The notes beneath the pieces are model-generated. The model ran no database searches. It was not told where the DNA came from and saw only the letters and a list, made by a program, of their open reading frames with translations. From positions 1,652-65,651 of the forward strand of contig CANRES010000002.1 of assembly GCA_947629625.1 (NCBI GenBank): a DNA stretch of 64,000 nt. The letters run 5' to 3'. A program made the translations under genes and the position numbers. The DNA is from an uncultured Clostridia bacterium. GTDB taxonomy: Bacteria; Bacillota; Clostridia; TANB77; CAG-508. Below, piece after piece: positions 26,062 through 44,606 of this stretch. Numbering within the stretch: the first letter of the stretch is position 1; each line of letters begins with the position of its first letter.

Positions 26062-26105
26062 AATTGAAGGAAAATATATAATAATTATATATTATGGAGG
26101 AAAAT

Positions 26106-27437
26106 ATGTTATTAGAATTTAAAATAAAAAATTACAAATCATTTTATAATGAAACTGTAATAAGCATGTTTGCAAATAGTGCAAAAAGAGATTATACAGA
26201 ACGTCTAATCAAAATAAATAAAACTAGTAATAAAAAAGTATTACCGTCAATGGTAATATATGGAGCAAACGCAAGTGGTAAAACTTCTATAATTTCAGCA
26301 ATAAATTTGCTTAAACAGATAATAATAAATGGAACAATAAAAAAACAAATAAAAAATAAAGAAATACAAGAATTGGATATATGCTCTTTTATACATGACA
26401 ATAAGAAAATGAATGAACCAATGCATTTAGAAATTACATTTAAAACAAAAAATTATATATATAATTATGCCTTAGATATAGTTGCAACATATTTAAAAAA
26501 GGATAGAAAAATAGTTAATGAAGAACTAAATATTGTAGAATTTAAAAACATTGGCACATCCATTAAAGAAACAAAAACTAATATTTTTAAGAGAAACGAA
26601 AATAGTGTAGAAATAAATAAAAACAAAGAAATTATGAATATATTAGAGAAAAAAGAAAATTTTATAGATGAAGCAAATAATTTAGAAAAAAGATTAAGCG
26701 AAAATTTAGATAAAGAAGATTTATTTTTAACAGCAGGATTTAAATCAATGATAAATCTAAAAATGTCAAATGATGTGTTAAATTGGTTTCAAGAACAACT
26801 AATAACAGTAGTTGATTTTAACGAAAAAGAACCCTTAGTAAATTTTAATGATGAAAATAGTGAAGACATAATTGTATATAGAAATAAAATGTTAGATAAA
26901 CTTATAAAAATTGCAGATTTTGGACCACAAGAATTTGGATATATCAAAGATAATAGTACAGGTAAATATACGTTAAATTCATTTTATACACCAAAGGGAT
27001 CTAAAGCAGGTATAATTATAAATTCTAAAACTATTGAATCAAAAGGTACACTAAAATTAATTGATTTTTGGATTACATTTATGGAATACTTTAAAAAAGG
27101 TGGAGTGTTTATACTAGATGAATTAGATTGTTCAATACATCCAGAATTAATAGGAGGAATTATAGATTTATTCAATAATAAAGATATTAACATTAATAAT
27201 TCTCAATTAATTTTTAATACTCATAACCCATTATATTTACAAAAAAGATTTTTTAGAAGAGATCAAATAATGTTTGTGGAAAAAGATGAAGAAACATATA
27301 TGAGTAGTACTTATAAATTATCAGATTTTGATTTAAGAAATGATGTTAATTATATGAAAAATTATTTTGAAGGAAAATTCGGAGCACTTCCTTTTATAGA
27401 TTTTGAGTCAACTCTTAATAAAGAAGGGGTTGATTAA
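26106..27437 (+). CDS. AAA_21/ABC-type ATPase, AbiLi-like abortive-infection component
   Basis: MLLEFKIKNYKSF..., Walker A GANASGKTS, Walker B FILDELD and H-loop near the C-terminus. 1-nt gap to the RloB-like partner. Confidence 0.7.
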   Translation: MLLEFKIKNYKSFYNETVISMFANSAKRDYTERLIKINKTSNKKVLPSMVIYGANASGKTSIISAINLLKQIIINGTIKKQIKNKEIQELDICSFIHDNKKMNEPMHLEITFKTKNYIYNYALDIVATYLKKDRKIVNEELNIVEFKNIGTSIKETKTNIFKRNENSVEINKNKEIMNILEKKENFIDEANNLEKRLSENLDKEDLFLTAGFKSMINLKMSNDVLNWFQEQLITVVDFNEKEPLVNFNDENSEDIIVYRNKMLDKLIKIADFGPQEFGYIKDNSTGKYTLNSFYTPKGSKAGIIINSKTIESKGTLKLIDFWITFMEYFKKGGVFILDELDCSIHPELIGGIIDLFNNKDININNSQLIFNTHNPLYLQKRFFRRDQIMFVEKDEETYMSSTYKLSDFDLRNDVNYMKNYFEGKFGALPFIDFESTLNKEGVD

Positions 27438-28013
27438 ATGATAAAAAGAGAATATAGATGTTTTTTTGAAGGGCAACAAGAAAAAATGTATTTTGAACAT
27501 GTAGCAAAGAAAATAAAGGAAGTTAATCCAATAGTAAGTATAAAATTTAAACCAGTAGAAAAATTAATTGTTTTAGAGAAAAGTTCAACAGATGTACCAA
27601 AAATAGCGGTATTTGATTATGATATGAATAAAATAGAATTTGAAAGAAAAATAAAGATATGCAGGAAAACTAATATTTTATATTCTAATCTTAATTTTGA
27701 TTTATGGTTATTATTACATAAAGTGAATTTTAGTAAAAATGTTCAACATAATGATGCATATAAAAATTTAATAATAAAAAATTTTAATTTAAGAGAAAAT
27801 TGCAATATAAAAACTAAAGCTAATATGGAAAAAATATTAGAGCAAATTGATATAAAAGATATAAAAAATGCAATAAAAAATTCTGAGCAAATAATGAATA
27901 ACAAATTAGAGGAAGATAAAATAACTATTAGAAAAAATTTCTATTATTATGAAAATCCTTCAATGAATATAAATGAATTTTTTAAAAGACTTTTTGAAGA
28001 AATAAAAGTATAA
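27438..28013 (+). CDS. RloB-like/AbiLii-like protein (Toprim-like), partner of the AAA_21 ATPase
   Basis: N-terminus EYRCFFEGQQEKMYFEH resembles the RloB CEGxxTExxYF motif; translationally coupled to the upstream ATPase. Confidence 0.6.
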   Translation: MIKREYRCFFEGQQEKMYFEHVAKKIKEVNPIVSIKFKPVEKLIVLEKSSTDVPKIAVFDYDMNKIEFERKIKICRKTNILYSNLNFDLWLLLHKVNFSKNVQHNDAYKNLIIKNFNLRENCNIKTKANMEKILEQIDIKDIKNAIKNSEQIMNNKLEEDKITIRKNFYYYENPSMNINEFFKRLFEEIKV

Positions 28014-28086: not shown

Positions 28087-28464
28087 ATGGTAAAAAAAAT
28101 AAGCATATTTTTAATAGTAATAACATTATTATTAACTATGATACCAATAAAAACATATGCATCAGGTTTAGCAACAGAAATAATAGATCCATCAACATAT
28201 GGTGCAGGAATAGAATCAACTAGGGATTCATCACAAGTTTTGGCAATAGTAAACCCAATATTAGGTGCTGTATATTACATAGGAATTTTTATATCAGTTG
28301 GAGCACTTATATTAATAGGAATAAAATATATGATGGGAAGTATAGAAGAAAAAGCACAATATAAAGAAACCTTATTTCCATATTTAATAGGTGCAGTATT
28401 ACTATTTGGAGGAATAAATATACTAAGAATAATATATAACATAGTAATAAAAACGATAAAATAA
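28087..28464 (+). CDS. VirB2/TrbC-like candidate T4SS pilin, paralog 1 (signal peptide + 2 TM)
   Basis: Signal peptide ...TYASG, then TM1, then YMMGSIEEKAQYKETLFPY loop, then TM2. Confidence 0.55.
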   Translation: MVKKISIFLIVITLLLTMIPIKTYASGLATEIIDPSTYGAGIESTRDSSQVLAIVNPILGAVYYIGIFISVGALILIGIKYMMGSIEEKAQYKETLFPYLIGAVLLFGGINILRIIYNIVIKTIK

Positions 28465-28494
28465 AGTAATATAACTATATTTTTCAAAAAAATG

Positions 28495-28523
28495 TTGAAA
28501 TATTAAAAAAAATGTTGTATAAT
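28495..28523 (+). promoter_or_regulatory. Promoter TTGAAA-N17-TATAAT for pilin-like gene 2; same AAAATGTTGAAA -35 region as gene 1
   Basis: 12/12 identity of aaaatgttgaaa with 28020-28031. Confidence 0.5.
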
Positions 28524-28557
28524 TAATTAAAGTGTGATTTAATGGGAGATGAGATTA

Positions 28558-28959
28558 ATGAAAAAAAATTTAATAATACAAGTAATAACCATACTATTAA
28601 TAATCTCTACATTAATATTTTACATACCAACAATATCAAAAGCATCAATAATAGGAGATGCATTTGAAAATGGAGATGGCTTTTTACAAACACAACCAGA
28701 TCAAACTATTCAAGATATGGTTGATGATACCAAAATAATAAAAACATCAAAAGATATATATAATCTTTTAATGATAATTGCAATAGTAGTAGCATCAATA
28801 GTAGTACTAGTATTAGGAATACAATTTATGGCAGGTAGTGTAGAACAAAAAGCAAAAGTTAAAGAAATGCTAATGCCATTTGGAATAGGATGCGTAGTTA
28901 TATTTGGCTCACTAGTAATATGGCGAATAGTAATATCAGTAATGTCATCTATAATGTAA
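28558..28959 (+). CDS. VirB2/TrbC-like candidate pilin, paralog 2
   Basis: Same architecture: ...LGIQFMAGSVEQKAKVKEMLMPFGIG.... ATG at 28558 sits 9 nt after GGGAG; the track's 28549 start is too close to the RBS. Confidence 0.55.
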   Translation: MKKNLIIQVITILLIISTLIFYIPTISKASIIGDAFENGDGFLQTQPDQTIQDMVDDTKIIKTSKDIYNLLMIIAIVVASIVVLVLGIQFMAGSVEQKAKVKEMLMPFGIGCVVIFGSLVIWRIVISVMSSIM

Positions 28960-29032
28960 GTTTTTAATGTTTTCTTATTAGAGTATAAGAAAGTTAAAAT
29001 ATAAATAAAAGAATAAAAAAGGAGGAAAAAAT

Positions 29033-29452
29033 ATGAAAAAATCAGTAAAAATAATGTCTATATTAATGATAGCATTAATGGTAATATCTGTTGCATTACC
29101 TATATTTGCAACTACAATTGATGGAGTAGAAGTAAGACCAGATATGAGTTCAATACAAGGTTCAACAGCAGGTAATAGTTTATCAAAAGTATTAGGTGCA
29201 TTAAGATACATAGGAATATTTGCAGCAGTAGCAATTCTTATGGTACTTGGTATTAAATATATGATGGGAAGTGCAGAAGAAAAAGCAGAATATAAGAAAA
29301 CTTTAATACCTTATATGTTAGGTGCAATACTATTATTTGCAGCATCATTCATAGTAGGAATAATAGCAGATGCAACAAACAAAGTTACACAAACATCTTC
29401 ATTAATTGAAAGTGGAAAAGTTTTAGCATCAACAATAAAAGCATTAGTATAA
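29033..29452 (+). CDS. VirB2/TrbC-like candidate pilin, paralog 3
   Basis: ...LGIKYMMGSAEEKAEYKKTLIPYMLGAILLF...; RBS aaaggagg. Confidence 0.55.
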   Translation: MKKSVKIMSILMIALMVISVALPIFATTIDGVEVRPDMSSIQGSTAGNSLSKVLGALRYIGIFAAVAILMVLGIKYMMGSAEEKAEYKKTLIPYMLGAILLFAASFIVGIIADATNKVTQTSSLIESGKVLASTIKALV

Positions 29453-29640: not shown

Positions 29641-29988
29641 ATGGGAACATATAACATACCTAGAAACGTTAAAGGAGAAGGAAGAATATTATATATATTT
29701 TCAAAAAAAGGTATCATATATACAATGGTAGGAGCATTAATAGGAACACCTTTTTATTTATTATTCAATTCAATAGGAATAACATTTGTAGGAGTAATAA
29801 TAATAATTCTTTTAGCATTAATAGGATTTATAATAGGAACATTTAAGGTACCAGAAACAACAGCATTTGAAATAACAAGAAAAACCGGCGGAGAAAATAT
29901 AGATGATGTAATAAAAAGAGCCTTCAAATTCTATAAAAATAGAAGAAGAATATATATCTATAAAGAGGAGGAAACAAAAGATGAGTAA
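29641..29988 (+). CDS. PrgI/VirB3-like small 2-TM conjugal transfer protein
   Basis: 115 aa with two central TMs; sits two genes upstream of the VirB4-like ATPase, as in pCF10 and Tn916-type loci. Confidence 0.55.
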   Translation: MGTYNIPRNVKGEGRILYIFSKKGIIYTMVGALIGTPFYLLFNSIGITFVGVIIIILLALIGFIIGTFKVPETTAFEITRKTGGENIDDVIKRAFKFYKNRRRIYIYKEEETKDE

Positions 29989-31273
29989 TAACGAATTAAC
30001 AAGTTTATTAACAACAATATTAATAGCAATGGTATTTGTATTATTTTTTCTAATAATGATATTTGTTTTCATAAAAATAAAAAATGATAAAAAGAAAAAG
30101 ATGCCGATGCAAACAGAAAATAAAGGAACAAATACAGCAACACAAGGATATAATAAACAATCAATTTTTAATTTTATGGAATTTGATAAAATTGAAGATA
30201 ATATGATAATTCAAAAAAACGGAACAAAATACTTAATGGTAGTTGAATGTCAGGGAGTAAATTATGATTTAATGTCAGGAATAGAAAAAACCTCAGTAGA
30301 AGAAGGCTTTCTACAATTTTTAAACACATTAAGACACCCAATACAAATATACACACAAACAAGAACAGTAAACTTAGAAAAAAGTATATCTACATATAAA
30401 TCTAGAATAGACCAACTAGAAGCAGATTTAAGAGCAAAAGAAGCAAATTATCAAGCAAAAGCAAAATCTGGAAGATATACAAAAGAACAACTAGATAAAG
30501 AATTTTATGAACTTACGAAACAAAGAAATCTATATGAATATGGAAGAGATGTAATCTTTAATACAGAAAGAATGAGTACAAATAAAAACGTACTAAACAA
30601 AAAATACTATATAATAATTCCATACTATCCAGAAGATTTAGGAAATAACAATTTTGATAAAGAAGAAATCAAAAACATAGCATTTTCTGAACTATACACA
30701 AGAGCACAATCAGTTATAAGAACGTTATCAGCATGTGGAATAAACGGAAAAATATTAGGCTCAAACTTACTTGCAGAACTATTATATGTAGCATATAATC
30801 GTGATGAAGAAGAAATATATGGACTTGATAAAGCAATAGCAGCAGGATATGACGAACTATATTCAACAGCACCAGATGTACTAGATAAGAAAATGAAGGA
30901 ATTAGATAAACAAATTGAACAAAAAGCAATGGATATGGCAAATGATGCAGTAATTCAAGCAAAATCAGATAAACAAAAGAGAATTGAAGAAAAAGAAAAA
31001 TCAATGAACGATTTGATATCACAAATGGCAAAATTAATTATAGAAGAAAACAAAACATTTGTAGGAGAAGATATTGCAGAAGCAGCAGTTGATAAAATAG
31101 ATGGTACAGAAGAACAAGAAGATATCGAAGAAATTGAAGAAGAAGAGGAAATAGCACCACCTAAAAAACGAGGAAGAAAAAAAGCAAGCACAGAAAATAC
31201 AGAAGAAGGAGGAAAAGTAAATGATGTCAAAGAAAAAAAGAAAACAACAAGAAGAACTACAAAGACAGCTTGA
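29981..31273 (+). CDS. Membrane-anchored coiled-coil protein of unknown function, with an acidic stretch and a basic KKRGRKK tail
   Basis: N-terminal TM (aa 8-32), long coiled-coil-like segments, C-terminal EEIEEEEEIAPPKKRGRKKAS.... Overlaps the virB4-like start by 53 nt. Confidence 0.5.
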   Translation: MSNNELTSLLTTILIAMVFVLFFLIMIFVFIKIKNDKKKKMPMQTENKGTNTATQGYNKQSIFNFMEFDKIEDNMIIQKNGTKYLMVVECQGVNYDLMSGIEKTSVEEGFLQFLNTLRHPIQIYTQTRTVNLEKSISTYKSRIDQLEADLRAKEANYQAKAKSGRYTKEQLDKEFYELTKQRNLYEYGRDVIFNTERMSTNKNVLNKKYYIIIPYYPEDLGNNNFDKEEIKNIAFSELYTRAQSVIRTLSACGINGKILGSNLLAELLYVAYNRDEEEIYGLDKAIAAGYDELYSTAPDVLDKKMKELDKQIEQKAMDMANDAVIQAKSDKQKRIEEKEKSMNDLISQMAKLIIEENKTFVGEDIAEAAVDKIDGTEEQEDIEEIEEEEEIAPPKKRGRKKASTENTEEGGKVNDVKEKKKTTRRTTKTA

Positions 31274-33188
31274 AACAAGAAATAGTATAGACATTAGCAT
31301 ACTAAAAAAGAAAACAATTAAAGATTTAATTGCACCATCTGGAATAGACGCTTCAAATATAGACCATTTAAAAATAATATCAAATACAAATAGATTTGCA
31401 AGAAGTTTCTTTGTATCAACACTACCTAGAATGTGTACGTTCCCAGAATTGTTTAGAGATATGTATATGTTTGGAGATATAAACACATCAATATATATAA
31501 ACCCAATACCAGAAGCAAGATCTCAAAACGAATTAAATAGAGTAATAAATGAACTAGAAACAGAAAGAATTGTAGCAGCAGATAGAGGAAATATAAATAG
31601 AGAAAGTACAGTATCTCAAAAAAGATTAGAAGCAGAAGAATTAAGAGACGAAATTGCAGCAGGATTTAATAAATTATTTGAAGCATCAATTGTTGCAACA
31701 CTATTTGCATACAGCCTAGAAGATTTGGACAAATACACAAAACTATTAGCAACAGAAATGTCAAAATCATTAGTTGGAGTAAAAAGTGCTTGGGGAATGC
31801 AAGAAGAAGCATTTAAATCTAATTTACCATTAATGAATGACCAAATAAAGAAAACACATACATTTGATAGACGTTCAATGGGAACAGTATTCCCATTCAC
31901 AACATCAGAAGTTGGACATCCAACAGGAATACCATTAGGATTTAATAAACAAACTGGAGTACCAATATTATTTGATAACTTCCACTCATCACTAACAAAC
32001 TATAACATGGTTATATTTGCAAAATCTGGTGCTGGTAAATCTGTTACAATGAAAACTTTAATATCAAGGTCAGCAGTATTAATGGGAATAGAAAGTTTAG
32101 CACTAGATGCAGAAGGTGAATATTCAATAGTTGCTGAAAGTTTAGGAGGAATTAATGTTGTATTAAGTCCAAATTCAAAAACAGTAATAAATTTATTTGA
32201 TATTGAATTAGAAACAGCAAAAGATGAAATAACAGGTAAAGAAAGACAAGTTTTAAATGTAGAAAATAAAGTAGAAGACGTAACACAAGCGCTACTTACA
32301 ATGGCAAGAGGAAGTACAAGAAGTCAAGAAGTAAATGAACTTACAAAACAAATAATTGCAGAAGCAGTAGCAGAAGAATATGCAAGATTAGGAATTACAA
32401 GTGATCCAAATAGCTTATATGTACAAAACAATACATTTGATGGAAATGCATTATATAAAGAAAAGAAAGAAATGCCTACAATTGGTAGTTGGTATAAACT
32501 AATAGAAAGAAAAGCAAAAGAAAATACAAATAAAGATTACAGTTTTCATTATAGTTACTTATTAAAAGTTATGAAACAATACATAAGAGCATATGATGGA
32601 CAAATGGCATATTTTGATGGACAATCTACATTTGATTTATTAGAGGGAGCACCTTTTATAAATCTAGATATATCACAACTAGAAGAAAGATTTGCAAGAC
32701 CATTAGCACAACAAATTCTATTATCATGGATTTGGGAAAAATATGTTAAGAAAAACAGTGAAGATAGAACAAAGGCTTCTAAAAAAAGAGTAATAGTAGA
32801 CGAAGCGTGGATGCTATTACCTTACCCAGAAGCAGTAGATTTCTTAAATACAATGGCTAGACGTGCAAGAAAAAGAAATGTATCATTAGCAATAATTTCA
32901 CAAAGATTTCAAGATTTTTATGAAAAACCAGAAGCACAAGCAGTATTAACATCTTCTGATACAAAACTATTTTTAGCACAAGATAAATCAGAAATACAAT
33001 ATTTAAAAGAAGTATTTAAACTAAGTGAAGGAGAAGCAGGATTTTTAGTAACTTGTTTAAAAGGAGAAGGATTATTAAAAGTTGGTGCAGATACAGCAAT
33101 ATTGCAAATTACACCAACAAAGAAGGAATTTGAATTTGTTGAAACAAATTTAAACAAATTGGTAGGAATGCGAAAAGCAAGAGAATAG
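31221..33188 (+). CDS. VirB4-family T4SS ATPase (TraE/TrsE/TcpF-like)
   Basis: Walker A FAKSGAGKSVTMKT, Walker B RVIVDEAWML. 655 aa, close to the size of the Gram-positive VirB4 homologues as I recall them (pIP501 TraE). Confidence 0.8.
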   Translation: MMSKKKRKQQEELQRQLETRNSIDISILKKKTIKDLIAPSGIDASNIDHLKIISNTNRFARSFFVSTLPRMCTFPELFRDMYMFGDINTSIYINPIPEARSQNELNRVINELETERIVAADRGNINRESTVSQKRLEAEELRDEIAAGFNKLFEASIVATLFAYSLEDLDKYTKLLATEMSKSLVGVKSAWGMQEEAFKSNLPLMNDQIKKTHTFDRRSMGTVFPFTTSEVGHPTGIPLGFNKQTGVPILFDNFHSSLTNYNMVIFAKSGAGKSVTMKTLISRSAVLMGIESLALDAEGEYSIVAESLGGINVVLSPNSKTVINLFDIELETAKDEITGKERQVLNVENKVEDVTQALLTMARGSTRSQEVNELTKQIIAEAVAEEYARLGITSDPNSLYVQNNTFDGNALYKEKKEMPTIGSWYKLIERKAKENTNKDYSFHYSYLLKVMKQYIRAYDGQMAYFDGQSTFDLLEGAPFINLDISQLEERFARPLAQQILLSWIWEKYVKKNSEDRTKASKKRVIVDEAWMLLPYPEAVDFLNTMARRARKRNVSLAIISQRFQDFYEKPEAQAVLTSSDTKLFLAQDKSEIQYLKEVFKLSEGEAGFLVTCLKGEGLLKVGADTAILQITPTKKEFEFVETNLNKLVGMRKARE

Positions 33189-33205: not shown

Positions 33206-36200
33206 ATGAAGCTTTTTACTAAGAAAAATTTAATTCAAAAGATGACAATAGTTTTGGTAATTCTAATGCTATTTAATTTTATAATGCCAAATTTCGTAAG
33301 AGCAGAAACAGCGATAGAAACAGCAGGAAAAGTAATTTTCACACCAGTTAGGGGTTTCTTAGTAATGTGTGGAGATGGTCTTATGACTGGGCTACAATAT
33401 TTACTAAAAACAAACGAAAAAGCAGTAATACCATATAGTGATCAAATAGAAGAAAGTAAGCAATTTATTGGGGAAGAAGATGATAGAAATTATTTTGAAT
33501 ATTATCTGGGAGATATTGTACTAGATGTATATGGTAATGCTACGGGTCAAGATAAACCTAATTTTAAATATACACCAAAATTTATTTTTGAAAATAAAAT
33601 AAAATCATTTGATATAAATTTTATTAGCCCATCAAGAGCAAACACTAATGGAGAAGCAAAAGAAAATGAAAATAGTGAAGAAAATCAATCAAGTTATTCT
33701 GATGAAACATGGTATGAAGATTATGTATATACAGTAGAAAAATGCCAAGAAAAATATAATACTTCAACTGATGAAACAGAAAAAGGTGTAGCAAGAACAG
33801 TATTACGTCGTTTAGGAGCATGGGATGATACAACAAATAATGTAGGTTATACAGATGAAACCGCTAAAAATGCTGTAAGTGAACTTTCACAAAGATATTA
33901 TAATGGTGCAACTATGTATGAAATGTTAGGAGCAGATCCAACCTCAAAAGATGCAACAATGAAAAAATATGTTGAATTTCTAGATAGTGGAATAGGTACA
34001 TATGTAATTGGAACTGTTGCTGAATATCATAAAGTAGCAGGAAATGAAACAAAAGAAACATTAGATTATGATGCAATAGCACCAGTAAATGCACTACATG
34101 ATATGATAGCAACATGGTATAAAATATTAAGAAATATTGCATTAATATTTTTACTATCAATTTTAGTATATATAGGAATTAGAATAATACTATCAAGTAC
34201 AGCAGCAGATAATGCAAAATATAAAAAAATGCTTGTAGATTGGGTAGTTGCATTATGTATTTTATTTGCATTACATTATATAATGGCAGGTATAAATGGG
34301 GCAGTTAATATGGTTGTAGATGCATTTACACCATCAAATAGTTCTGATACTGATGCTATATTTGGAAATGTAAGAACACAATTAATGTCTGAAAATTTAT
34401 CTGACCAACTTTTTTATACAGTATTATATCTAGTATTGGTTATCTATACATTAGTATTTACATTTTATTATTTGAAAAGGGTTGTTTATGCAGCATTTTT
34501 AACATTAATTGCGCCATTAGTAGCATTAACTTACCCATTAGATAGAATGGGTGATGGAAAATCACAAGCATTTAATATGTGGTTAAAGGAATACATTGCG
34601 AATGTAATTATTCAACCAGTGCATTTATTGATATATACTGTATTAATAGGTTCTGTACTTTCATTATCAGTAAAAAATCCATTATATGCAATTGTTGTAA
34701 TGGGAGCAATGATGCCAGCAGAAAAATTCATTAGAGAGATGTTTGGATTAAATAGCCAAAAAGGATTAAGCCCAGCAGGAAGCTTTGCAGGTGGAGCACT
34801 TGCTGCATCAGCAATGAATAAATTATTATCAAAACCACCTAGAATGCATCCTCGTGGTGAACATGGTAAATCAAAAGATAATGGCAGTGAAAACGAAAAT
34901 GAAACAAAACGAAATAAAATTAAAATGAAAGATAGTATGTCTGATATAGCAAATTCAATAGTAGGACAAGATGTGCCAGATGTAACCAATAATAGAATAA
35001 AAGATAACACAAATAGCACAGAAAATAAACCAGATGTAGATAATGGAGATTTTCCAGATAGTAGAGAACTTGATAATCAAGAGCAAGCAAAAAATGAAGA
35101 TATATACTTACCAAATAATAAAGATACAAGTAATATGGATGAAATAGCTTCACCATCACAAGAAGAAATTGATGCAGCTTTAAATCCACCTATGGATGAT
35201 GATAGAGTTACTATGGATGAAATAGCACCACCATCACAAGAAGAAATTAATGCGACTTTAAATTCACCTATGGATAAAAATACAAGTACTATGGATGAAA
35301 TAGCACCACCACCACAAGAAGAAATTGATGCAACTTTAAATCCACCTATGCATAATAACAGACAAATCAACAGTCAAGAAGATAAATTACAGCAAGGAAA
35401 CAATAACTTGAACATGCCTAATAAAGCAACTATACCAATGAGTAAAGCAGAACAAAAACAAGCAAAGAAAACATTGAAGAAACAAAAAAGAGCTGCTCAA
35501 TATGCAGCATCAAAAAGATATTATACTAAATTAACTAAACAAAGATTAAGAAAATTAGGAAAATTAGGTAAAGGTTTAGCAAGAGGAGCATTAAAAACAG
35601 CAGGTGCTGCAACGGGAATAGCATTAGGTGCAACAGCAGGAATAGTAGGAGGAATTGCTACTGGTGATGTAGGAAATGCATTAAAATTTACTGGAGCTGG
35701 TGCATTAGCAGGTGCAAAATTTGGTTCTGTAATAGGTGATGATGTTTATAATATTGGAGCAAGAGGTGGATCTGGTGTAGCGAGTGCAATTAATAGTCAA
35801 AAAGAAATGAAGCAAATGTGGCAAAACGACTTATACAATACTAATGAAGAATATAGAAAAAAAGTGGATCAAAAAGAAGCAAAGAAATTAATAAAATCAG
35901 CAGAAACAACAGCAATGATACAACAAAGATTTGGAAGGGGTAAAGTAAAAGAAGCACAAAAGGCTATGATGGAATATAATGAACGAGGAATAGATAATGT
36001 TGATACAATGCTTAACTGTTTTGGACTAGAACAAGGAATAGATAGACATGGAAATAGATTTACTGAACCGGGTAGTATCGATCGTAATCAAGCAATTATG
36101 GCAGGAAGAATTGCAGAACAATATGATGTAAATAATGCTTCTGGCAGAAAATCTAGTAAAGATGAATTAGAGCATCAATTAGCAAATAGCGTATATAATG

Positions 36201-36448
36201 GATCTTTTGATGGTAAAGAATATACAATAACAAGAGACCAAGCATTTGATAGAGTAAAAGGAAATGTAAATAATATTATGAAACTAGCGGATATGGCACA
36301 AGGAATTGATACAAAACATGCAGGCTTAGCAGATCAATTAGAAGAATCAAATAAAGCTAAACAAAAACGTACTAGAGCAAAAGAAGTTAGAGAGAGAATG
36401 GAAGTTGAAAATGAAGTTGCAAGAGAAAATAACAACAAAAACAACTAA
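33206..36448 (+). CDS. VirB6/TrbL-like polytopic membrane protein with a large N-terminal extracytoplasmic domain, three tandem 26-aa Pro-rich repeats, a Gly/Ala-zipper segment and a C-terminal soluble domain
   Basis: Signal/TM at the N-terminus, about 6 TMs at aa 300-510, repeats MDEIAPPSQEEIDATLNPPM x3, glycine zipper GAATGIALGATAGIVGGIATG. Confidence 0.6.
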   Translation: MKLFTKKNLIQKMTIVLVILMLFNFIMPNFVRAETAIETAGKVIFTPVRGFLVMCGDGLMTGLQYLLKTNEKAVIPYSDQIEESKQFIGEEDDRNYFEYYLGDIVLDVYGNATGQDKPNFKYTPKFIFENKIKSFDINFISPSRANTNGEAKENENSEENQSSYSDETWYEDYVYTVEKCQEKYNTSTDETEKGVARTVLRRLGAWDDTTNNVGYTDETAKNAVSELSQRYYNGATMYEMLGADPTSKDATMKKYVEFLDSGIGTYVIGTVAEYHKVAGNETKETLDYDAIAPVNALHDMIATWYKILRNIALIFLLSILVYIGIRIILSSTAADNAKYKKMLVDWVVALCILFALHYIMAGINGAVNMVVDAFTPSNSSDTDAIFGNVRTQLMSENLSDQLFYTVLYLVLVIYTLVFTFYYLKRVVYAAFLTLIAPLVALTYPLDRMGDGKSQAFNMWLKEYIANVIIQPVHLLIYTVLIGSVLSLSVKNPLYAIVVMGAMMPAEKFIREMFGLNSQKGLSPAGSFAGGALAASAMNKLLSKPPRMHPRGEHGKSKDNGSENENETKRNKIKMKDSMSDIANSIVGQDVPDVTNNRIKDNTNSTENKPDVDNGDFPDSRELDNQEQAKNEDIYLPNNKDTSNMDEIASPSQEEIDAALNPPMDDDRVTMDEIAPPSQEEINATLNSPMDKNTSTMDEIAPPPQEEIDATLNPPMHNNRQINSQEDKLQQGNNNLNMPNKATIPMSKAEQKQAKKTLKKQKRAAQYAASKRYYTKLTKQRLRKLGKLGKGLARGALKTAGAATGIALGATAGIVGGIATGDVGNALKFTGAGALAGAKFGSVIGDDVYNIGARGGSGVASAINSQKEMKQMWQNDLYNTNEEYRKKVDQKEAKKLIKSAETTAMIQQRFGRGKVKEAQKAMMEYNERGIDNVDTMLNCFGLEQGIDRHGNRFTEPGSIDRNQAIMAGRIAEQYDVNNASGRKSSKDELEHQLANSVYNGSFDGKEYTITRDQAFDRVKGNVNNIMKLADMAQGIDTKHAGLADQLEESNKAKQKRTRAKEVRERMEVENEVARENNNKNN
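35135..35368 (+). repeat. 3 x 78-bp in-frame tandem repeat inside the VirB6-like gene
   Basis: atggatgaaatagc(t/a)(t/c)cacca(t/c)cacaagaagaaatt... occurs at 35135, 35213 and 35291. Confidence 0.8.
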
Positions 36449-36478
36449 AAATAATAACTAAATTTAATGGGGGCAAAA

Positions 36479-36979
36479 ATGTTAGGAACACATCCAATTG
36501 TTAGATATTTAAATCAAAATAGAAAACAAATATTTACAGTAATTATAGCAGTAGCAATATTTTTCCTAATATTAAGAATTTTAAATAATATAGAAGAAAG
36601 AAAAATAAAACAAGAACAAGAAAAAACAAATACATATTATACAGAAATAACAAATGCAAACGAACATGCAAAAATAATAAAACAATTTCTAGAATATTGT
36701 AAGAGTGGAGATGCAAGTAATGCATATAAATTACTTGCATCCAAAACAAAAGAAGAAAAATATCAAAATCAAACTGAATTTAACAATAACTATATTTTAA
36801 AATTCTTTTCAGAAAACAAAAACTACACAATAACATACAATTCACAAAATAATAATCAATATTACTATATTATAAAAATAACTAATGACATAATATCAGC
36901 GGGAAAAGTTGATAAAGAACCAGTAATACAAGATTTTATAATTACTAATGAAAATGGAGAAGACAAAATTATAATTTAA
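36479..36979 (+). CDS. Membrane-anchored single NTF2-like domain protein (VirB8/TcpC-like candidate)
   Basis: N-terminal TM; ...CKSGDASNAYKLLASKTKEEKYQNQTEF... is the NTF2/SnoaL-like pattern shared with the 38.5-39.8 kb protein. Confidence 0.45.
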   Translation: MLGTHPIVRYLNQNRKQIFTVIIAVAIFFLILRILNNIEERKIKQEQEKTNTYYTEITNANEHAKIIKQFLEYCKSGDASNAYKLLASKTKEEKYQNQTEFNNNYILKFFSENKNYTITYNSQNNNQYYYIIKITNDIISAGKVDKEPVIQDFIITNENGEDKIII

Positions 36980-37130: not shown

Positions 37131-38477
37131 ATGGACTTTTTAGAACAAGCAAAAAGTGCATTCAAAAATGCATATTTAACAGGAATAAAAAAGAAATTAA
37201 TAATGTTAGGAATAGGAATACTAGTATTTATAATATTAATAACAATACTAGTAGGTGTAATATTAGTAGAAGACGAAGAAAGCCAAATTGGAAATTATAA
37301 TAGTTTAGCATCATACTCATTTTGGTGGCCAATAGGAAGTAGAGAAACAACATTAGATGCAGATGGAAATGAATACGCAATTAAAGAGCCATCAGCAATA
37401 ACTATAAGTAGTGATTACAAAATAAGAAATCAAGAAAGACCAGACCATGACGGAATAGATATAAATAGTGATGATGCTCAAGATGGAGAAAAAAAAGGAG
37501 AAGGTTACCATTATATTATTGCATCAAAAGATGGAACAGTAATTACATCTCATTTTTCAGGTCAAAATGGTGTAGAAGGTTCAGCAGGAGAATACATAGC
37601 AATAGACCATGGAGATGGATTTGTTACAAAATATATGCATATGTATGAAGGAAGTCGTACAGTAGAGGTAGGAGATACAGTAAAACAGGGACAAATTATT
37701 GGTATTATGGGAAATACAGGCTATTCTACAGGAGCACACTTACACTTTCAAATAGAACTTGATGGGGAACCAGTAGATCCTTTGCAATATGTAAGTGCAG
37801 AATTCCCAAGAGGTGGATCAAGCATTGATCCATTTACAACAAGTATTTCAAGGGAAGACTTTATACAATGTATTCAACAATATTCACAAGAAGCAAATTA
37901 TCAAATGAATATGGCACAATATGCAGGAGAATTTTATGATATATGCACAGAAAAAGGAGTAAGTGCTGAATTAGCATTTGCACACTCATGTTTAGAAACA
38001 GAATTTGGAACATATTTTATAGCACAAAATAACTATTTTGGTTATGCAGCATATAATAGTAATCCAAATTCAGCAACAAGTTATTCAACACCACAAGAAT
38101 CAATAAGAAGTTATTGTGATTGGGTAATAAACAATGCAACAATGGACACAAGTGCATATCAAGCAAACCTTCAAAGAGCGGAAGAATTATCACCATATAA
38201 TTCTATGCTAGTAGGCACACCAGAAACAAATGTATATGTATTATATATTAGATATGCTCAACTAGACGCTACACATGAAGGAGACTATGCAACAATAGAT
38301 CGTAACAATATAAATAGTGTTAAATATTTAGGAACATATTATTTCACATATTATATGTATGGAGAAATGTGTAACCATTTACCGGGAGAACCTACATCAG
38401 ATCAAGAAAAGGCAGATTATGCAGTATATTCTACAAATAAAAGAATAGAAATAATAAATAGTATATTTGGAAAATAA
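37131..38477 (+). CDS. Membrane-anchored bifunctional peptidoglycan hydrolase: M23 peptidase + glucosaminidase/FlgJ-like domain (functional VirB1 analogue)
   Basis: M23 motifs HDGIDI and HLHFQIELDGEPVDP; C-terminal ...ELAFAHSCLETEFG... is glucosaminidase-like; N-terminal TM. Confidence 0.7.
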   Translation: MDFLEQAKSAFKNAYLTGIKKKLIMLGIGILVFIILITILVGVILVEDEESQIGNYNSLASYSFWWPIGSRETTLDADGNEYAIKEPSAITISSDYKIRNQERPDHDGIDINSDDAQDGEKKGEGYHYIIASKDGTVITSHFSGQNGVEGSAGEYIAIDHGDGFVTKYMHMYEGSRTVEVGDTVKQGQIIGIMGNTGYSTGAHLHFQIELDGEPVDPLQYVSAEFPRGGSSIDPFTTSISREDFIQCIQQYSQEANYQMNMAQYAGEFYDICTEKGVSAELAFAHSCLETEFGTYFIAQNNYFGYAAYNSNPNSATSYSTPQESIRSYCDWVINNATMDTSAYQANLQRAEELSPYNSMLVGTPETNVYVLYIRYAQLDATHEGDYATIDRNNINSVKYLGTYYFTYYMYGEMCNHLPGEPTSDQEKADYAVYSTNKRIEIINSIFGK

Positions 38478-38493
38478 ATTAGAGGTGGGGGAA

Positions 38494-39837
38494 TTGAAAA
38501 AAATAAAAATACTCATAATTATTACTAGTATAATTTCTATATTACTTATATTTGCAATTATTATATTAAATATTAATAGTAAGGGAGAAGAAAATAATAA
38601 TAATTTAAATATTAACAATAACATAAGTAATATGATAGGTAATACAACAAGTAATATAGTAAATAATGTACAAGGTAATTTAATAAATAATAACGTACAA
38701 GAAAATAACATAAATATAGGGAGTACAGAAATAAAACCACAGCCTGTAAAATCAAGAGAAGATTTTTACACAGTAAAATCTTGTATTGATGAATATATTA
38801 ATTATATTGTAGCAAACAATAATGAAGCATTATATAACATATTAGATAAATATTATCTTGACAAAAATAATATAGATAAAAATAATATTTTAGAAAAATT
38901 AGTAAAAATAAATACATACCAAGTATTTAATCCAGAAAGAATGAATTATGTTGAATTAAATAACAAACAAATATATATGGTTTATGGAAAAATTAGAGAG
39001 GATAAACTAAATGAAAGAGCAAATGAGGTTGATTTTAATTTAACAGTAACAATAAATAAACAAAACAATAGTTATTCAATAATACCAGAAATAATTAATG
39101 AAACAACATCATATTCTTTAATTGGAAATAACACAAGAACTAAATATAATTTATATTCAACTGTTAATATAGATAATAAAACAATGGCAAATATTTATTT
39201 TGTAGATTATAAAACAAAATTACTATATAATCTTCAAAACGCATACGATTTATTAGATGAAAATTATTCTAAAAAAAGATTTAATGGTTATTCAAATTTT
39301 TATCAGTATGTACAAGACAACATAAATAAAATCAATAGAGCAAACTTAACAAAATATTCAATAACAAATGAAGGAAATAATACAATTTTTACATGTATAG
39401 ATCAATATAATAATTATTATATATTTGAAGAAACTGCAATAATGCAATATAAGGTTATGTTAGATAATTACACTATTGACAGTAATGAATTTGTAACAAA
39501 ATATAGTTCAGCATCATTTCAAGAAAAAATGGAATTAAATATACAAAAATTCATAAAAATGATAAATTCAAAAGATTATGAAAATGCTTATAATCTTTTA
39601 AATACAGAATTTAAAAATAATAATTTTGCAGACTTACAACAATTTATAAACTATGTAACATCATCATTTTATAACTACAATGATGTAAAATTTAATACTT
39701 TTTCAACACAAGGTGATATTGGAATATATGAAATTAATATTAATGGAGTAGTAAATGATATTGATGTTACACAAATAAAAACTATCATAATGAAACTAGG
39801 CACTGGAACAGATTTTGAAATATCATTTGATATATAG
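38494..39837 (+). CDS. Membrane-anchored Asn-rich protein with two tandem NTF2-like domains (TcpC/VirB8-like candidate)
   Basis: TM at the N-terminus; two ...(E/N)AY(N)(I/L)L... domains (NNNEALYNILDKYY..., KDYENAYNLLNTEFK...). TTG at 38494 after agaggtggggg is preferred over the track's overlapping 38467 start. Confidence 0.45.
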   Translation: MKKIKILIIITSIISILLIFAIIILNINSKGEENNNNLNINNNISNMIGNTTSNIVNNVQGNLINNNVQENNINIGSTEIKPQPVKSREDFYTVKSCIDEYINYIVANNNEALYNILDKYYLDKNNIDKNNILEKLVKINTYQVFNPERMNYVELNNKQIYMVYGKIREDKLNERANEVDFNLTVTINKQNNSYSIIPEIINETTSYSLIGNNTRTKYNLYSTVNIDNKTMANIYFVDYKTKLLYNLQNAYDLLDENYSKKRFNGYSNFYQYVQDNINKINRANLTKYSITNEGNNTIFTCIDQYNNYYIFEETAIMQYKVMLDNYTIDSNEFVTKYSSASFQEKMELNIQKFIKMINSKDYENAYNLLNTEFKNNNFADLQQFINYVTSSFYNYNDVKFNTFSTQGDIGIYEININGVVNDIDVTQIKTIIMKLGTGTDFEISFDI

Positions 39838-43348: not shown

Positions 43349-44606
43349 ATGAAAAGTTACATAGTAGAAGGAGGAAAAAAACTAGAAGGAGAAACCTATG
43401 TGTCAGGCTCTAAGAATGCATCACTACCAATAATAGCATCATGTATACTAAATAAAGGAATAACAAAACTATACAACGTACCAAATATTCACGATACAAA
43501 AGTAATGTTTGAAATTTTAAAATATTTAGGTTGCAAAATCAAGAAGAATAATGGTAAAATAATAATAGATTCCACAAAAGTTGAAAAATTTGAAATACCA
43601 GAACACATGATGAGAGAAATGAGGTCATCAGTAATACTTGCAGGAGCATTAATAGGAAGATTAAAAAAAGCAACATTCTCATATCCACGGAGGATGTGAC
43701 ATAGGAACAAGACCAATAGATCTACATTTAAAAGCATTTCAAAATTTAGGAATAAATATTGAAGAAAATGCTGGATTTATTAGGTGTAATTGTGATAAAA
43801 TAGTAGGAACAGAAATCTCATTAGATTTTCCAAGTGTAGGAGCAACAGAAAACTCTATGCTAGCAGCAGTATTAGCAGAAGGAACAACAACAATAAACAA
43901 TGCAGCAATGGAACCAGAAATAATAGACTTGCAAAACATATTAAATAAAATGGGAGCAAATATAAGTGGAGCAGGAAGCAATATTATTACAATAAAAGGA
44001 GTAGAAAAACTAAAAAATACAAGTTACAAAATAATGCCAGATAGAATAGAAGCAGGAACTATATTATGTTGTGTAGCAGTAACAGGAGGAAAAGTAAACT
44101 TAAAAGAAGTAATACCAGAACACTTAACACCAGTATTACACAAATTAGAAGAATGTGGTTGCAAAATAGAAACAACAAAAAATAGTATAATGTTACAAGC
44201 ACCAAAAAAAATGAAAAGTATAGACATAAAAACAATGCCATACCCGGGCTTCCCAACAGATATGCAATCAGTATTTGCAAGTATGTTATGTACAACAAAA
44301 GGAACATCAATAGTAATAGAAAATATATTTGAAAATAGATACAAATATACAAACGAACTAAAAAGAATGGGAGCAAAAATTACAATAGAAGGCAGAAGCG
44401 CTATAATAAAAGGGGTAAGAAAACTTACTGCAACAAATGTAAAAGCAACAGATTTAAGAGGAGGAGCAGCATTAGTTGTAGCAGCATTAAATGCAAAAGG
44501 AAAAACAAAAATAGAAAACATAGAATATATACTTAGAGGATATGAAAATCTAGATAAAAAATTAAATAACTTAGGAGCAAATGTAAAAATTAAAGAAGGT
44601 GAATAA
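43349..44606 (+). pseudogene. murA: UDP-N-acetylglucosamine 1-carboxyvinyltransferase gene interrupted by a +1 frameshift (extra C near 43688)
   Basis: Frame 2 reads ...KKATFSYPRRM*. Frame 0 from 43680 reads HIHGGCDIGTRPIDLHLKAF.... Deleting c in tatccaCggagga restores ...FSYPGGCDIGTRP.... Confidence 0.7.

What the first reader, a model, noticed from the sequence alone, without database searches (positions are those of the whole stretch)
33206..36448. Oversized VirB6-like protein (1080 aa) carrying three perfect-period 78-bp repeats, a glycine-zipper segment and a ~300-aa C-terminal soluble domain
The polytopic core (~6 TMs) is flanked by a ~270-aa N-terminal extracytoplasmic domain. Downstream come 3 x 26-aa Pro-rich repeats (MDEIAPPSQEEIDATLNPPM; DNA repeats at 35135, 35213, 35291), a GxxxG/A zipper (GAATGIALGATAGIVGGIATG) and a conserved-looking C-terminal domain. 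Repeat copy number could vary between strains (slippage) and change surface-exposed length. The C-terminal domain may be a delivered or adhesive module, as in extended VirB6 proteins.
Basis: seen in the sequence. Interest (0 to 1): 0.5.

Follow-up and report, generated by a model that had tools for sequence, protein, structure and literature searches.

The report
Extended VirB6 with built-in pilin hairpin
This 1080-residue gene encodes the VirB6-type membrane platform of a type IV secretion/pilus machine that sits in the chromosome of many uncultured gut Clostridia; its first membrane hairpin is a copy of the machine's own pilin, while the three 26-residue repeats are a lineage-specific triplication inside a variable, probably cytoplasmic linker.

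Summary
The ORF is 33206-36448 (1080 aa, strong RBS). It holds three in-frame 78-bp units (83-91% identical, no indels), a Gly-zipper and a folded C-terminal domain.

The protein is a VirB6-family subunit:
- It follows a split VirB4 in a conserved cluster: three VirB2-like pilins, PrgI/VirB3, a TraC-like N-domain, VirB4 ATPase, this gene, a cell-wall hydrolase and a candidate VirB8.

New here: residues 290-377 are homologous to the cluster's own pilins (47 bits; hhalign 96%).

The cluster is chromosomal, lies between the same housekeeping genes in distant relatives, and has no relaxase or coupling protein nearby. It resembles the Patescibacteria T4SS more than a conjugative element.

- Charge distribution places the linker, and probably the C-domain, in the cytoplasm.
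- An independent 98%-identical assembly has the same three copies.
- The C-domain has no solved-structure relative and occurs only at the C-terminus of this subfamily.

Oversized VirB6 proteins with unstructured or repeat-bearing tails are already known. Verdict: new variant of a known kind, moderate interest.

The parts
33206..36448 (+). Whole ORF, 1080 aa: extended VirB6-family subunit
   Evidence: RBS AGGAGG; family of >3500 proteins
33206..33304 (+). Signal sequence, aa 1-33 (KK..K n-region, hydrophobic 9-29, VRA|ET). It resembles the signal sequences of the neighbouring pilins.
   Evidence: pil2 aa 1-32 vs B6L 1-33, 39% identity; A33 invariant
33305..34090 (+). Variable extracytoplasmic N-terminal domain, aa 34-295; mostly helical, the most divergent folded part of the protein
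   Evidence: pLDDT 80-92 for aa 168-281, low for 84-114 and 144-162
34073..34336 (+). VirB2-pilin-homologous hairpin, aa 290-377 (helices 298-329 and 333-374; loop SSTAADNAKYKKML against pilin GSxEEKAEYKKTL)
   Evidence: HMM of 172 cluster pilins: 47.2 bits, i-E 1.3e-13, reversed control max 15 bits; hhalign 96.1%, E 3.3e-9; PF18895 above threshold in relatives P0030 and P0021
34091..34741 (+). VirB6 fold core, aa 296-512: five hydrophobic helices plus a short sixth; the most conserved part (invariant W304, Y305, R309, G324, W346, C351, R425, P437, YP443-444, D446, D450, Q454, W459, E462, QP470-471, H473, F513)
34742..35596 (+). Low-complexity linker, aa 513-797: basic juxtamembrane part (506-575), acidic Pro/Asn/Asp/Glu-rich middle (576-730, net charge -26), very basic part (731-797)
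   Evidence: length 190-380 aa and unalignable across the family
35117..35350 (+). Three in-frame 78-bp / 26-aa units, aa 638-715 (xxxxxxMDEIAPPSQEEIDATLNPPM)
35597..35740 (+). Double Gly-zipper segment, aa 798-845 (family consensus GATxGLAAGxATGD...AGAxAG...G); proposed membrane-embedded or re-entrant hairpin
   Evidence: pLDDT <50 as a monomer; an analogous Gly/Ala/Met-rich segment occurs in the C. botulinum plasmid homologue
35795..36445 (+). C-terminal all-helical domain, aa 864-1080
   Evidence: pLDDT >90; no PDB relative; restricted to this subfamily
28087..29452 (+). Array of three VirB2-like pilin genes (28087-28464, 28549-28959, 29033-29452)
   Evidence: Pfam TrbC/T4SS_pilin; profile vs PDB hits TrwL/VirB2, E 0.053; conserved in 63-67 of 80 related loci
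29641..29988 (+). PrgI family (VirB3-like) gene
29981..33188 (+). Split VirB4: a 430-aa TraC-like N-domain ORF (29981-31273) overlapping a 655-aa ATPase ORF (31221-33188)
   Evidence: PF26593 TraC-like in orthologues; the split is conserved in 72 of 80 loci
36467..36979 (+). Conserved 170-aa single-pass membrane protein of unknown role
   Evidence: 53 of 80 loci
37131..38477 (+). Cell-wall hydrolase (M23 peptidase + glucosaminidase), VirB1-type role
   Evidence: the domain make-up varies between genomes
38467..39837 (+). Conserved 456-aa membrane-anchored protein, candidate VirB8-like component
   Evidence: 63 of 80 loci; 10 of 22 orthologues hit DUF4864; the NTF2-like nature of DUF4864 is recalled from memory

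Best explanation
The ORF encodes the VirB6-family platform/channel subunit of a type IV secretion-type pilus machine. The machine is fixed in the chromosome of a large clade of uncultured, very low-GC gut Clostridia.

Shown:
- It lies directly after a split VirB4, in a conserved cluster of three VirB2-like pilins, PrgI/VirB3, a TraC-like N-domain, the VirB4 ATPase, this gene, a small membrane protein, a wall hydrolase and a candidate VirB8.
- Its hydrophobic core has the VirB6 fold.
- Its first helical hairpin, and its signal sequence, are homologous to the cluster's own pilins.

Inferred mechanism:
- After Sec export and cleavage, the variable N-domain sits outside the membrane.
- As in R388 and pCF10 models, five copies form the central platform.
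- The five built-in pilin-like hairpins act as a first pilin layer on which the free VirB2-like pilins polymerise, driven by VirB4.
- The tail is cytoplasmic. A basic juxtamembrane stretch leads into an acidic disordered tether carrying one to three copies of a short acidic motif (three here). A basic stretch follows, then a conserved double Gly-zipper that dips into or lies on the membrane, and then a helical domain.
- That helical domain docks a cytoplasmic partner, most plausibly the VirB4/TraC-like ATPase or a substrate. It may stand in for a coupling protein, which is not encoded in the locus.
- The three repeats are a lineage-specific triplication of that motif, not a switch.
For: - Locus and synteny.
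- Pilin homology of aa 290-377.
- Chromosomal fixation: the same M16-peptidase ... PBP5 flanks occur in relatives only 27-35% identical, and 344 matching stretches were found in species-representative genomes.
- No relaxase or VirD4: none in the 64-kb window and none within 10 kb in four other genomes.
- Cytoplasmic tail: family-wide K/R excess flanks the last core helix and the Gly-zipper.
- Repeats: same copy number in the independent 98% assembly. The motif is single-copy in P0002, P0003, P0005 and P0006 and two-copy in P0010. Other members carry unrelated linker repeats.
- Literature: MPF_FA VirB6 proteins are 700-900 aa with unstructured domains; the VirB6 pentamer is proposed as the pilus assembly platform (PMC12857230; bioRxiv 10.64898/2025.12.18.695078).
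Against: - The window protein itself reaches no TrbL/VirB6 Pfam or NCBIfam threshold.
- Foldseek E-values are weak (0.2-0.35).
- No oligomer was modelled, so the pentamer and the templating role are inference.
- Topology rests on hydrophobicity and charge counts, not on a dedicated predictor or an experiment.
- The short sixth helix (492-505) could span the membrane and put the tail outside.
- The Gly-zipper was modelled with pLDDT <50, and residues 551-764 were not modelled.
- The partner of the C-domain is unknown.
- A coupling protein or relaxase could be encoded elsewhere in the genome.
Confidence: 0.6

Rival explanations
1. The tail is extracellular: the Pro-rich acidic repeats span the cell wall, copy number tunes reach, and the C-terminal domain is a surface adhesin or a released/delivered module.
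For: Pro-rich acidic repeats are typical of wall-spanning regions of Gram-positive surface proteins (general knowledge). Helix 492-512 could be a sixth membrane span. A single-span Gly-zipper would put the C-domain on the side opposite the linker. Anaplasma VirB6-3/-4 have acidic, strain-variable C-terminal repeats that their authors consider likely antigenic (PMC3556328).
Against: There are 14 K/R in the 70 aa after the core and 20 K/R against 1 D/E before the Gly-zipper, and this holds family-wide. The hydrophobic stretch 492-505 is only 14 residues long. The C-domain is K/R/E-rich and helical, with no adhesin-like or beta-rich fold and no PDB match. It is not found as a module in other proteins. 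No sorting or cleavage motif was seen. No copy-number difference appears in the 98%-identical sequence.
Confidence: 0.2
2. It is simply the VirB6 of an ordinary conjugative element (ICE), and the machine transfers DNA. The relaxase, coupling protein and integrase lie outside the region examined.
For: The gene set is that of Gram-positive conjugation systems. The best VirB4 model is the conjugative CD1110 family (215 bits, below its cut-off of 325). A homologous cluster with the same split VirB4 and an 864-aa VirB6-like gene lies on C. botulinum plasmids next to a tyrosine recombinase.
Against: The same housekeeping flanks (M16 peptidases upstream, PBP5 downstream) occur in genomes whose VirB6 is only 27-35% identical, which indicates vertical descent rather than mobility. 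No relaxase, VirD4 or integrase appears in the 64-kb window or in four 20-kb neighbourhoods. Only six plasmid records out of 72,556 carry a relative, and PLSDB types them as non-mobilizable.
Confidence: 0.15
3. The 78-bp repeats are a contingency locus: frequent slipped-strand changes in copy number give phase or antigenic variation of the protein.
For: The period is in frame and there are three tandem units. The linker is indel-prone: P0001 lacks 18 aa between two PDV motifs. Copy number of the motif differs between species.
Against: The units are only 83-91% identical, with mostly non-synonymous differences, which is a poor substrate for frequent slippage. Copy number is identical in the two independent assemblies. 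A 78-bp in-frame unit cannot switch expression off. The region is probably cytoplasmic.
Confidence: 0.08
4. The repeats are an assembly artefact (collapsed or expanded repeat in a MAG).
For: The source is a metagenome-assembled contig. At least one probable 1-nt error or pseudogene (murA) exists in the window.
Against: The three units differ from each other at 7-13 of 78 positions, so short reads can place them. An independent ENA assembly gives the identical repeat region.
Confidence: 0.02

Closest known systems
TrwI/VirB6 of plasmid R388 (PDB 7O3V, 8RT9, 8RTD) and DotA of the Legionella Dot/Icm system (9NGY)
   Different: About 10% sequence identity and no sequence-level hit. The window protein adds a 260-aa N-terminal outer domain and a 570-aa tail, works in a single-membrane cell, and has no VirB5 partner in the locus.
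Extended VirB6 proteins of Gram-positive MPF_FA systems (700-900 aa, e.g. TcpH of pCW3, ConG of ICEBs1, Orf15 of Tn916)
   Same: Large polytopic VirB6-like protein after VirB4 and before a wall hydrolase, with extra unstructured domains (PMC12857230). From memory: TcpH has a cytoplasmic C-terminal domain and an essential VQQPW motif, which resembles the invariant IIQPVH (Q470, P471, H473) here.
   Different: Those systems are on conjugative elements with a coupling protein and a relaxase, whereas this one is chromosomal without them. No significant sequence match to those families was obtained here. The Gly-zipper plus helical C-domain has not been described for them, as far as I could find.
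T4SS of Patescibacteria (Southlakia epibionticum and others)
   Same: Chromosomal, mostly without a relaxase, with arrays of divergent VirB2-like pilins next to PrgI/VirB3, VirB4 and VirB6, and sometimes origin-proximal (PMC12102498, PMC12857230). In relative L128 the cluster here lies directly after gidA-gidB-parA-parB.
   Different: Different phylum (Clostridia). A TrsD/VirD4-like ATPase is common in Patescibacteria but was not seen here. VirB4 is split here. Essentiality is unknown here.
PrgH (VirB6) with PrgF (VirB2-like) of pCF10 and other Gram-positive plasmids
   Same: A small two-helix pilin encoded near virB6; AF3 models place pilins on a VirB6 pentamer (bioRxiv 10.64898/2025.12.18.695078).
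   Different: That work describes docking, not homology between the pilin and the first hairpin of VirB6. Here three pilin paralogues are recognised directly by Pfam TrbC/T4SS_pilin.
Anaplasma phagocytophilum VirB6-3 and VirB6-4
   Same: VirB6 paralogues with long, acidic, tandem-repeat-rich C-terminal extensions whose repeat number differs between strains (PMC3556328).
   Different: Those are far larger (up to 5,550 aa, dozens of repeats) and occur in a diderm intracellular pathogen. Here there are three diverged 26-aa units and no strain-level variation was seen.
864-aa hypothetical protein of Clostridium botulinum plasmid pFWSKR40E1 (WP_172688165.1)
   Same: 26% identity over the core (aa 297-515) and the same local gene order, including the split VirB4. 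A Gly/Ala/Met-rich zipper-like segment lies in its tail.
   Different: It is plasmid-borne, with a short N-domain, no MDEIA repeats and an unrelated C-terminus.

Membership tests
VirB6/TrbL family (T4SS inner-membrane platform) | Polytopic protein with five or more hydrophobic helices | tested here: met
   Five segments with mean Kyte-Doolittle 1.7-1.9 plus a short sixth, aa 303-505; AF2 helices at 298-512.
VirB6/TrbL family (T4SS inner-membrane platform) | Encoded in a T4SS locus next to VirB4 and VirB3 | tested here: met
   PrgI, TraC-like and VirB4 lie immediately upstream and a hydrolase lies downstream. The order is conserved in ~80 loci.
VirB6/TrbL family (T4SS inner-membrane platform) | Match to a curated TrbL/VirB6 profile at its threshold | tested here: inconclusive
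   Window protein: no TrbL hit at E<=0.1; only pLS20_p028 (30 bits vs cut-off 150) and Mbov_0396. Orthologues: TrbL_3 unmarked on P0014 and weak on P0002; TrbL_4 at 24.3 bits vs 27 on P0002.
VirB6/TrbL family (T4SS inner-membrane platform) | VirB6 three-dimensional fold | tested here: met
VirB6/TrbL family (T4SS inner-membrane platform) | Pentameric assembly at the centre of the machine | not testable with these tools
   No multimer prediction was available.
Extended-VirB6 subgroup | VirB6 core plus one or more large hydrophilic domains (definition in PMC12857230) | tested here: met
   260-aa N-domain, ~285-aa linker and 217-aa C-domain.
VirB2/TrbC pilin family (for aa 290-377 only) | Two long hydrophobic helices joined by a short charged loop, recognised by pilin profiles | tested here: met
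   Window: PF18895 at 17.8 bits (below 26.6), but 47.2 bits against the cluster-pilin HMM and hhalign 96.1%. Relatives P0030 and P0021 pass the PF18895 threshold.
VirB2/TrbC pilin family (for aa 290-377 only) | Small free subunit (about 70-140 aa) that polymerises into a filament | tested here: not met
   The module is embedded in a 1080-aa polytopic protein, so the NCBI name 'pilin' given to relatives is a misnomer for the whole protein.
Conjugative T4SS (ICE or plasmid) | Relaxase and VirD4-type coupling protein associated with the mating-pair genes | tested here: not met
   None in the 64-kb window and none in +/-10 kb of four relatives. The rest of each genome was not searchable.
Conjugative T4SS (ICE or plasmid) | Mobile-element hallmarks: integrase, variable insertion site | tested here: not met
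   No integrase. The same M16 ... PBP5 site occurs in distant relatives. Other relatives have it at other chromosomal sites, next to parAB or patatin.
Patescibacteria-type non-conjugative T4SS | Chromosomal, relaxase-less cluster with a VirB2 pilin array, PrgI, VirB4 and VirB6 | tested here: met
   This is a resemblance in organisation only; the phylogenetic relation of the VirB4 proteins was not tested.
Pfam Gly-zipper families (Gly-zipper_Omp, YMGG and others) | Profile match | tested here: not met
   No such hit at E<=0.1. The segment is a GxxxG/A-rich motif specific to this family.

The most novel reading that the evidence does not exclude
The cluster is a Firmicutes counterpart of the essential Patescibacteria T4SS: a vertically inherited, non-conjugative, pilus-building machine in hundreds of uncultured gut Clostridia species. 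Its VirB6 subunit carries a genuine pilin module that serves as the built-in nucleus (first layer) of a VirB2 pilus. This would give direct sequence evidence that VirB6 platforms and VirB2 pilins share ancestry. The conserved Gly-zipper plus helical C-domain would replace the missing coupling protein as the cytoplasmic receptor or gate.
Probability: 0.3. Interest if true: 0.7.

Novelty: new variant of a known kind. Interest (0 to 1): 0.45.

Why it matters
Three points matter:

1. Reviews up to late 2025 state that VirB2 pilins are absent from Gram-positive T4SSs apart from Patescibacteria. A December 2025 preprint finds them on plasmids. Here a three-pilin array with a VirB6 partner is a chromosomal fixture across a large, uncultured gut clade. 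That points to a function other than plasmid transfer, such as adhesion, uptake or exchange with other cells.

2. The clear homology between the first hairpin of this VirB6 and the cognate pilins gives a concrete, testable mechanism for how a pentameric platform nucleates a five-fold pilus.

3. How the extra domains of extended VirB6 proteins contribute is called 'not yet known' in the field. This family offers a conserved, well-predicted C-domain and Gly-zipper to test.

The repeats themselves matter little.

Tried and rejected
- **PDB by sequence.** A 30-member family profile gave nothing meaningful, only low-complexity hits at E>0.07.
- **AFDB50 fold search.** The library was unavailable.
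- **PHROGs for the ORF.** No hit, so it is not phage-related.
- **Exact look-up of the window protein in the contig index.** Not on record. The identical sequence exists as P0122 on a 70-kb NCBI contig.
- **Repeat copy number in more strains.** An exact-pattern scan of metagenome contigs with a 36-nt degenerate repeat-unit pattern found 0 matches. A protein-based scan found 42 loci, none closer than ~56% over a segment. Only P0001 could therefore be compared.
- **Plasmid search.** Only six C. botulinum plasmids matched, at 26% identity over the core.
- **Frameshift reading of the split VirB4.** Rejected, because the split is conserved in 72 of 80 loci and on the C. botulinum plasmid.
- **p456 and p430 against PDB sequences.** Nothing found.
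- **Literature search for the TcpH VQQPW motif.** Not in the held library, so the comparison is marked as memory only.
- **Promoter scan.** Not enriched over shuffles (86 found vs 93.8 expected). The three 11/12 matches before pil1, pil2 and prgI are only suggestive.
Full report
**1. The observation**

The ORF runs from 33206 to 36448 on the + strand and encodes 1080 aa. Its ATG lies 8-9 nt after an AGGAGG and 17 nt after the stop of the upstream gene.

Tandem Repeats Finder reports a 78-bp period with 3.1 copies at 35118-35355, 85% matches and no indels. In protein terms the units are aa 638-715.

The units are 83-91% identical in DNA, and most differences change the amino acid. So the period is perfect but the sequence is not. 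At offset 78 a 156-nt window shows 134 identities, against 75.7 +/- 1.8 in codon shuffles.

The Gly-zipper, the N-terminal hydrophilic domain and the hydrophobic core are all present. The folded C-terminal domain is about 217 aa (864-1080), not about 300.

**2. What the protein is**

*Curated profiles.* These barely see the window protein. Pfam gives only a sub-threshold T4SS_pilin hit at aa 296-355. NCBIfam gives sub-threshold hits to two conjugation-system membrane-protein families.

*Context.* The surroundings are unambiguous:
- Upstream: three TrbC/VirB2-type pilin genes, a PrgI (VirB3-like) gene, a 430-aa ORF and a 655-aa VirB4 ATPase.
- Downstream: a 170-aa membrane protein, an M23 + glucosaminidase wall hydrolase and a 456-aa protein.

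*Family.* The ORF belongs to a large unnamed family: more than 3500 hits among the 8000 candidates scored, almost all from gut metagenomes. In orthologues with the same architecture, Pfam TrbL_3 is recorded (unmarked on P0014, weak on P0002) and TrbL_4 nearly reaches threshold.

*Structure.* An AF2 model of aa 1-550 built with 105 homologues gives pLDDT 81-94 over most of the core helices.
- Foldseek also ranks TrwI chains as the only meaningful hits (prob 0.91-0.97, TM 0.42-0.48, E 0.2-0.35).

I therefore file the core as a VirB6-fold domain. The caveat is that the window sequence itself does not pass any curated sequence threshold.

**3. The pilin module**

I built an HMM from 172 small pilin ORFs of the window and 80 related loci. 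It hits 88 of the large VirB6-like ORFs at 56-72 bits over almost the whole pilin profile. The window protein scores 47.2 bits (i-E 1.3e-13) at aa 290-377, while reversed sequences score at most 15 bits.

Three further lines agree:
- Profile-profile comparison gives 96.1% probability and E 3.3e-9, aligning B6L 294-373 to pilin-3 43-121.
- The shared loop motif is obvious: GIKYMMGSxEEKAEYKKTL in pilins against GIRIILSSTAADNAKYKKML here.
- The signal sequences are alike as well.

Independently, Pfam T4SS_pilin passes its threshold in relatives P0030 and P0021. This explains why NCBI calls an 857-aa relative 'pilin'.

The pilins themselves are VirB2-like. Pfam TrbC passes threshold for pilin 3, and the only biological PDB hit of their profile is TrwL/VirB2 (E 0.053).

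The hairpin lies within the segment that superposes on TrwI. So in this family the first two helices of VirB6 are a pilin homologue. I found no statement of such homology in the papers I read. They describe docking of VirB2 on a VirB6 pentamer (PMC12857230; bioRxiv 10.64898/2025.12.18.695078).

**4. The tail**

*Linker.* After the core comes a linker that cannot be aligned across the family and varies from about 190 to 380 aa. Its ends are strongly basic and its middle strongly acidic:

| Segment | Window K/R | Window D/E | Family median |
|---|---|---|---|
| aa 506-575 | 14 | 7 | 12 K/R |
| aa 576-730 | 10 | 36 | net about -20 |
| aa 731-797 | 20 | 1 | 14 K/R, 4 D/E |

*Topology.* By the positive-inside rule the linker begins and ends in the cytoplasm. 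Loop charges in the core agree with an out-in-out-in-out-in path of five spans after an external N-domain.

*Gly-zipper.* The Gly-zipper (consensus GATxGLAAGxATGD...AGAxAG...G) is the best conserved feature after the core. It has two moderately hydrophobic halves and basic flanks. AF2 modelled it poorly as a monomer. I read it as a re-entrant or interfacial hairpin, perhaps one that oligomerises. This is inference.

*C-domain.* The C-domain (864-1080) is predicted with pLDDT >90 as an all-helical domain.
- It has no relative among solved structures, by sequence or by fold.
- In 1.84 billion representative proteins it is found only at the C-terminus of this subfamily: 8 hits, of which the five large proteins other than P0001 are 31-42% identical.

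That pattern fits a fast-evolving interaction domain. It does not fit a shared adhesin or effector module.

**5. The repeats**

The unit is an acidic motif whose copy number differs between species:
- One copy in the nearest relatives (P0002 at 50% identity; P0003, P0005, P0006).
- Two copies at a different spacing in P0010.
- Three copies in the window and in the independent 98%-identical ENA sequence P0001.

P0001 differs by an 18-aa deletion elsewhere in the linker, between two PDV motifs. Other family members carry unrelated tandem repeats in the same region, with periods of 20, 27, 31, 45 and 59 aa.

So the linker is a low-constraint, indel-prone tether. The motif may be a short binding element whose valency drifts between species. 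Nothing indicates rapid within-species switching. More strains could not be found.

Acidic repeat-bearing tails are already known in VirB6 paralogues of Anaplasma (PMC3556328). Oversized Gram-positive VirB6 proteins with unstructured domains are described in the 2025 nomenclature review (PMC12857230).

**6. The system**

*Conservation.* The order pilins, PrgI, TraC-like, VirB4, VirB6-like, p170, hydrolase, p456 is conserved in nearly all of 80 loci. These come from species-representative genomes, all uncultured gut Clostridia from human, rabbit, chicken, goat and mouse.

*Split VirB4.* VirB4 is divided into a TraC-like N-domain ORF and an overlapping ATPase ORF. This is a family trait, not a frameshift.

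*Location.* In the window and in relatives only 27-35% identical, the cluster sits between two M16 peptidase genes and a PBP5 gene. In others it lies after gidA-gidB-parA-parB or next to patatin.

*No conjugation genes.* No relaxase, VirD4 or integrase occurs in the 64-kb window, whose other large ORFs are housekeeping genes. None occurs in four 20-kb neighbourhoods either.

*Plasmid relatives.* Only six plasmids in PLSDB, all from C. botulinum and typed non-mobilizable, carry a related cluster.

*Comparison.* This organisation matches what was described for Patescibacteria: chromosomal, relaxase-poor, with pilin arrays, and proposed to have been co-opted for a non-conjugative role (PMC12102498). 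The function here is unknown. I favour a pilus used for contact or exchange rather than plasmid transfer, but the rest of each genome could not be searched.

**7. Verdict**

The sequence features are real, and the VirB6-like call is right. The proposals that the repeats tune a surface-exposed length and that the C-domain is adhesive or delivered are not supported, and the charge evidence contradicts them.

The item is a new variant of a known kind, an extended VirB6. Two points are worth follow-up: the built-in pilin hairpin, and membership in a chromosomal, apparently non-conjugative T4SS that is widespread in uncultured gut Clostridia.

Noticed in passing
window 43349-44606: murA is broken by what looks like a 1-nt insertion near 43687-43690 (TCA TAT CCA C GGA GGA TGT GAC). 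Frame 1 ends ...SYPRRM*, and the next frame continues with the conserved GGCDIGTRPIDLHL. This is either an assembly error or a pseudogene of an essential gene.
   Followed up: partly
window 26094-28013: An AAA_21 ATPase plus RloB gene pair (defence-type) sits between the M16 peptidase genes and the pilin array. Relatives with the same flanks (L081, L130) have only a small SpoOE-like gene there, so this is a lineage-specific insertion.
   Followed up: partly
window 29981-33188: VirB4 is encoded as two overlapping ORFs: a 430-aa TraC-like N-domain and a 655-aa ATPase, overlapping at 31221-31273. The split is conserved in 72 of 80 related loci and on a C. botulinum plasmid, so it is a family trait rather than a frameshift.
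   Followed up: yes
window 28087-29452: Three divergent VirB2-like pilin paralogues (31-56% identical to each other) lie in a Gram-positive chromosome. In some relatives the first pilin gene is 225-552 aa long, with a long N-terminal extension. The best promoter-like matches (11/12) lie before pil1, pil2 and prgI.
   Followed up: partly
window 37131-38477; L081 13637-16654; L128 13596-18737; L129 14345-17273: The wall hydrolase of the cluster changes its catalytic domains between genomes: M23 + glucosaminidase; lysozyme + NlpC/P60; M15 + beta-lactamase-like + lysozyme (1713 aa); amidase_3 + lysozyme + CHAP; and C39 peptidase on the plasmid.
   Followed up: partly
window 38467-39837: The 456-aa protein is conserved in 63 of 80 loci. 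10 of 22 orthologues hit DUF4864 and the window copy weakly hits DUF3887. It is possibly the VirB8-like (NTF2-type) component; its structure was not predicted.
   Followed up: partly
L128 1-10000: In one relative on a 553-kb contig, the T4SS cluster lies directly downstream of gidA-gidB-parA-parB, that is, near the replication origin. Origin proximity has also been noted for Patescibacteria T4SS clusters.
   Followed up: no
window 1975-7587: There is a very large (1870 aa) GH94-family protein with an added glucoamylase-like domain, in a 26% GC genome. It is unrelated to the finding.
   Followed up: no
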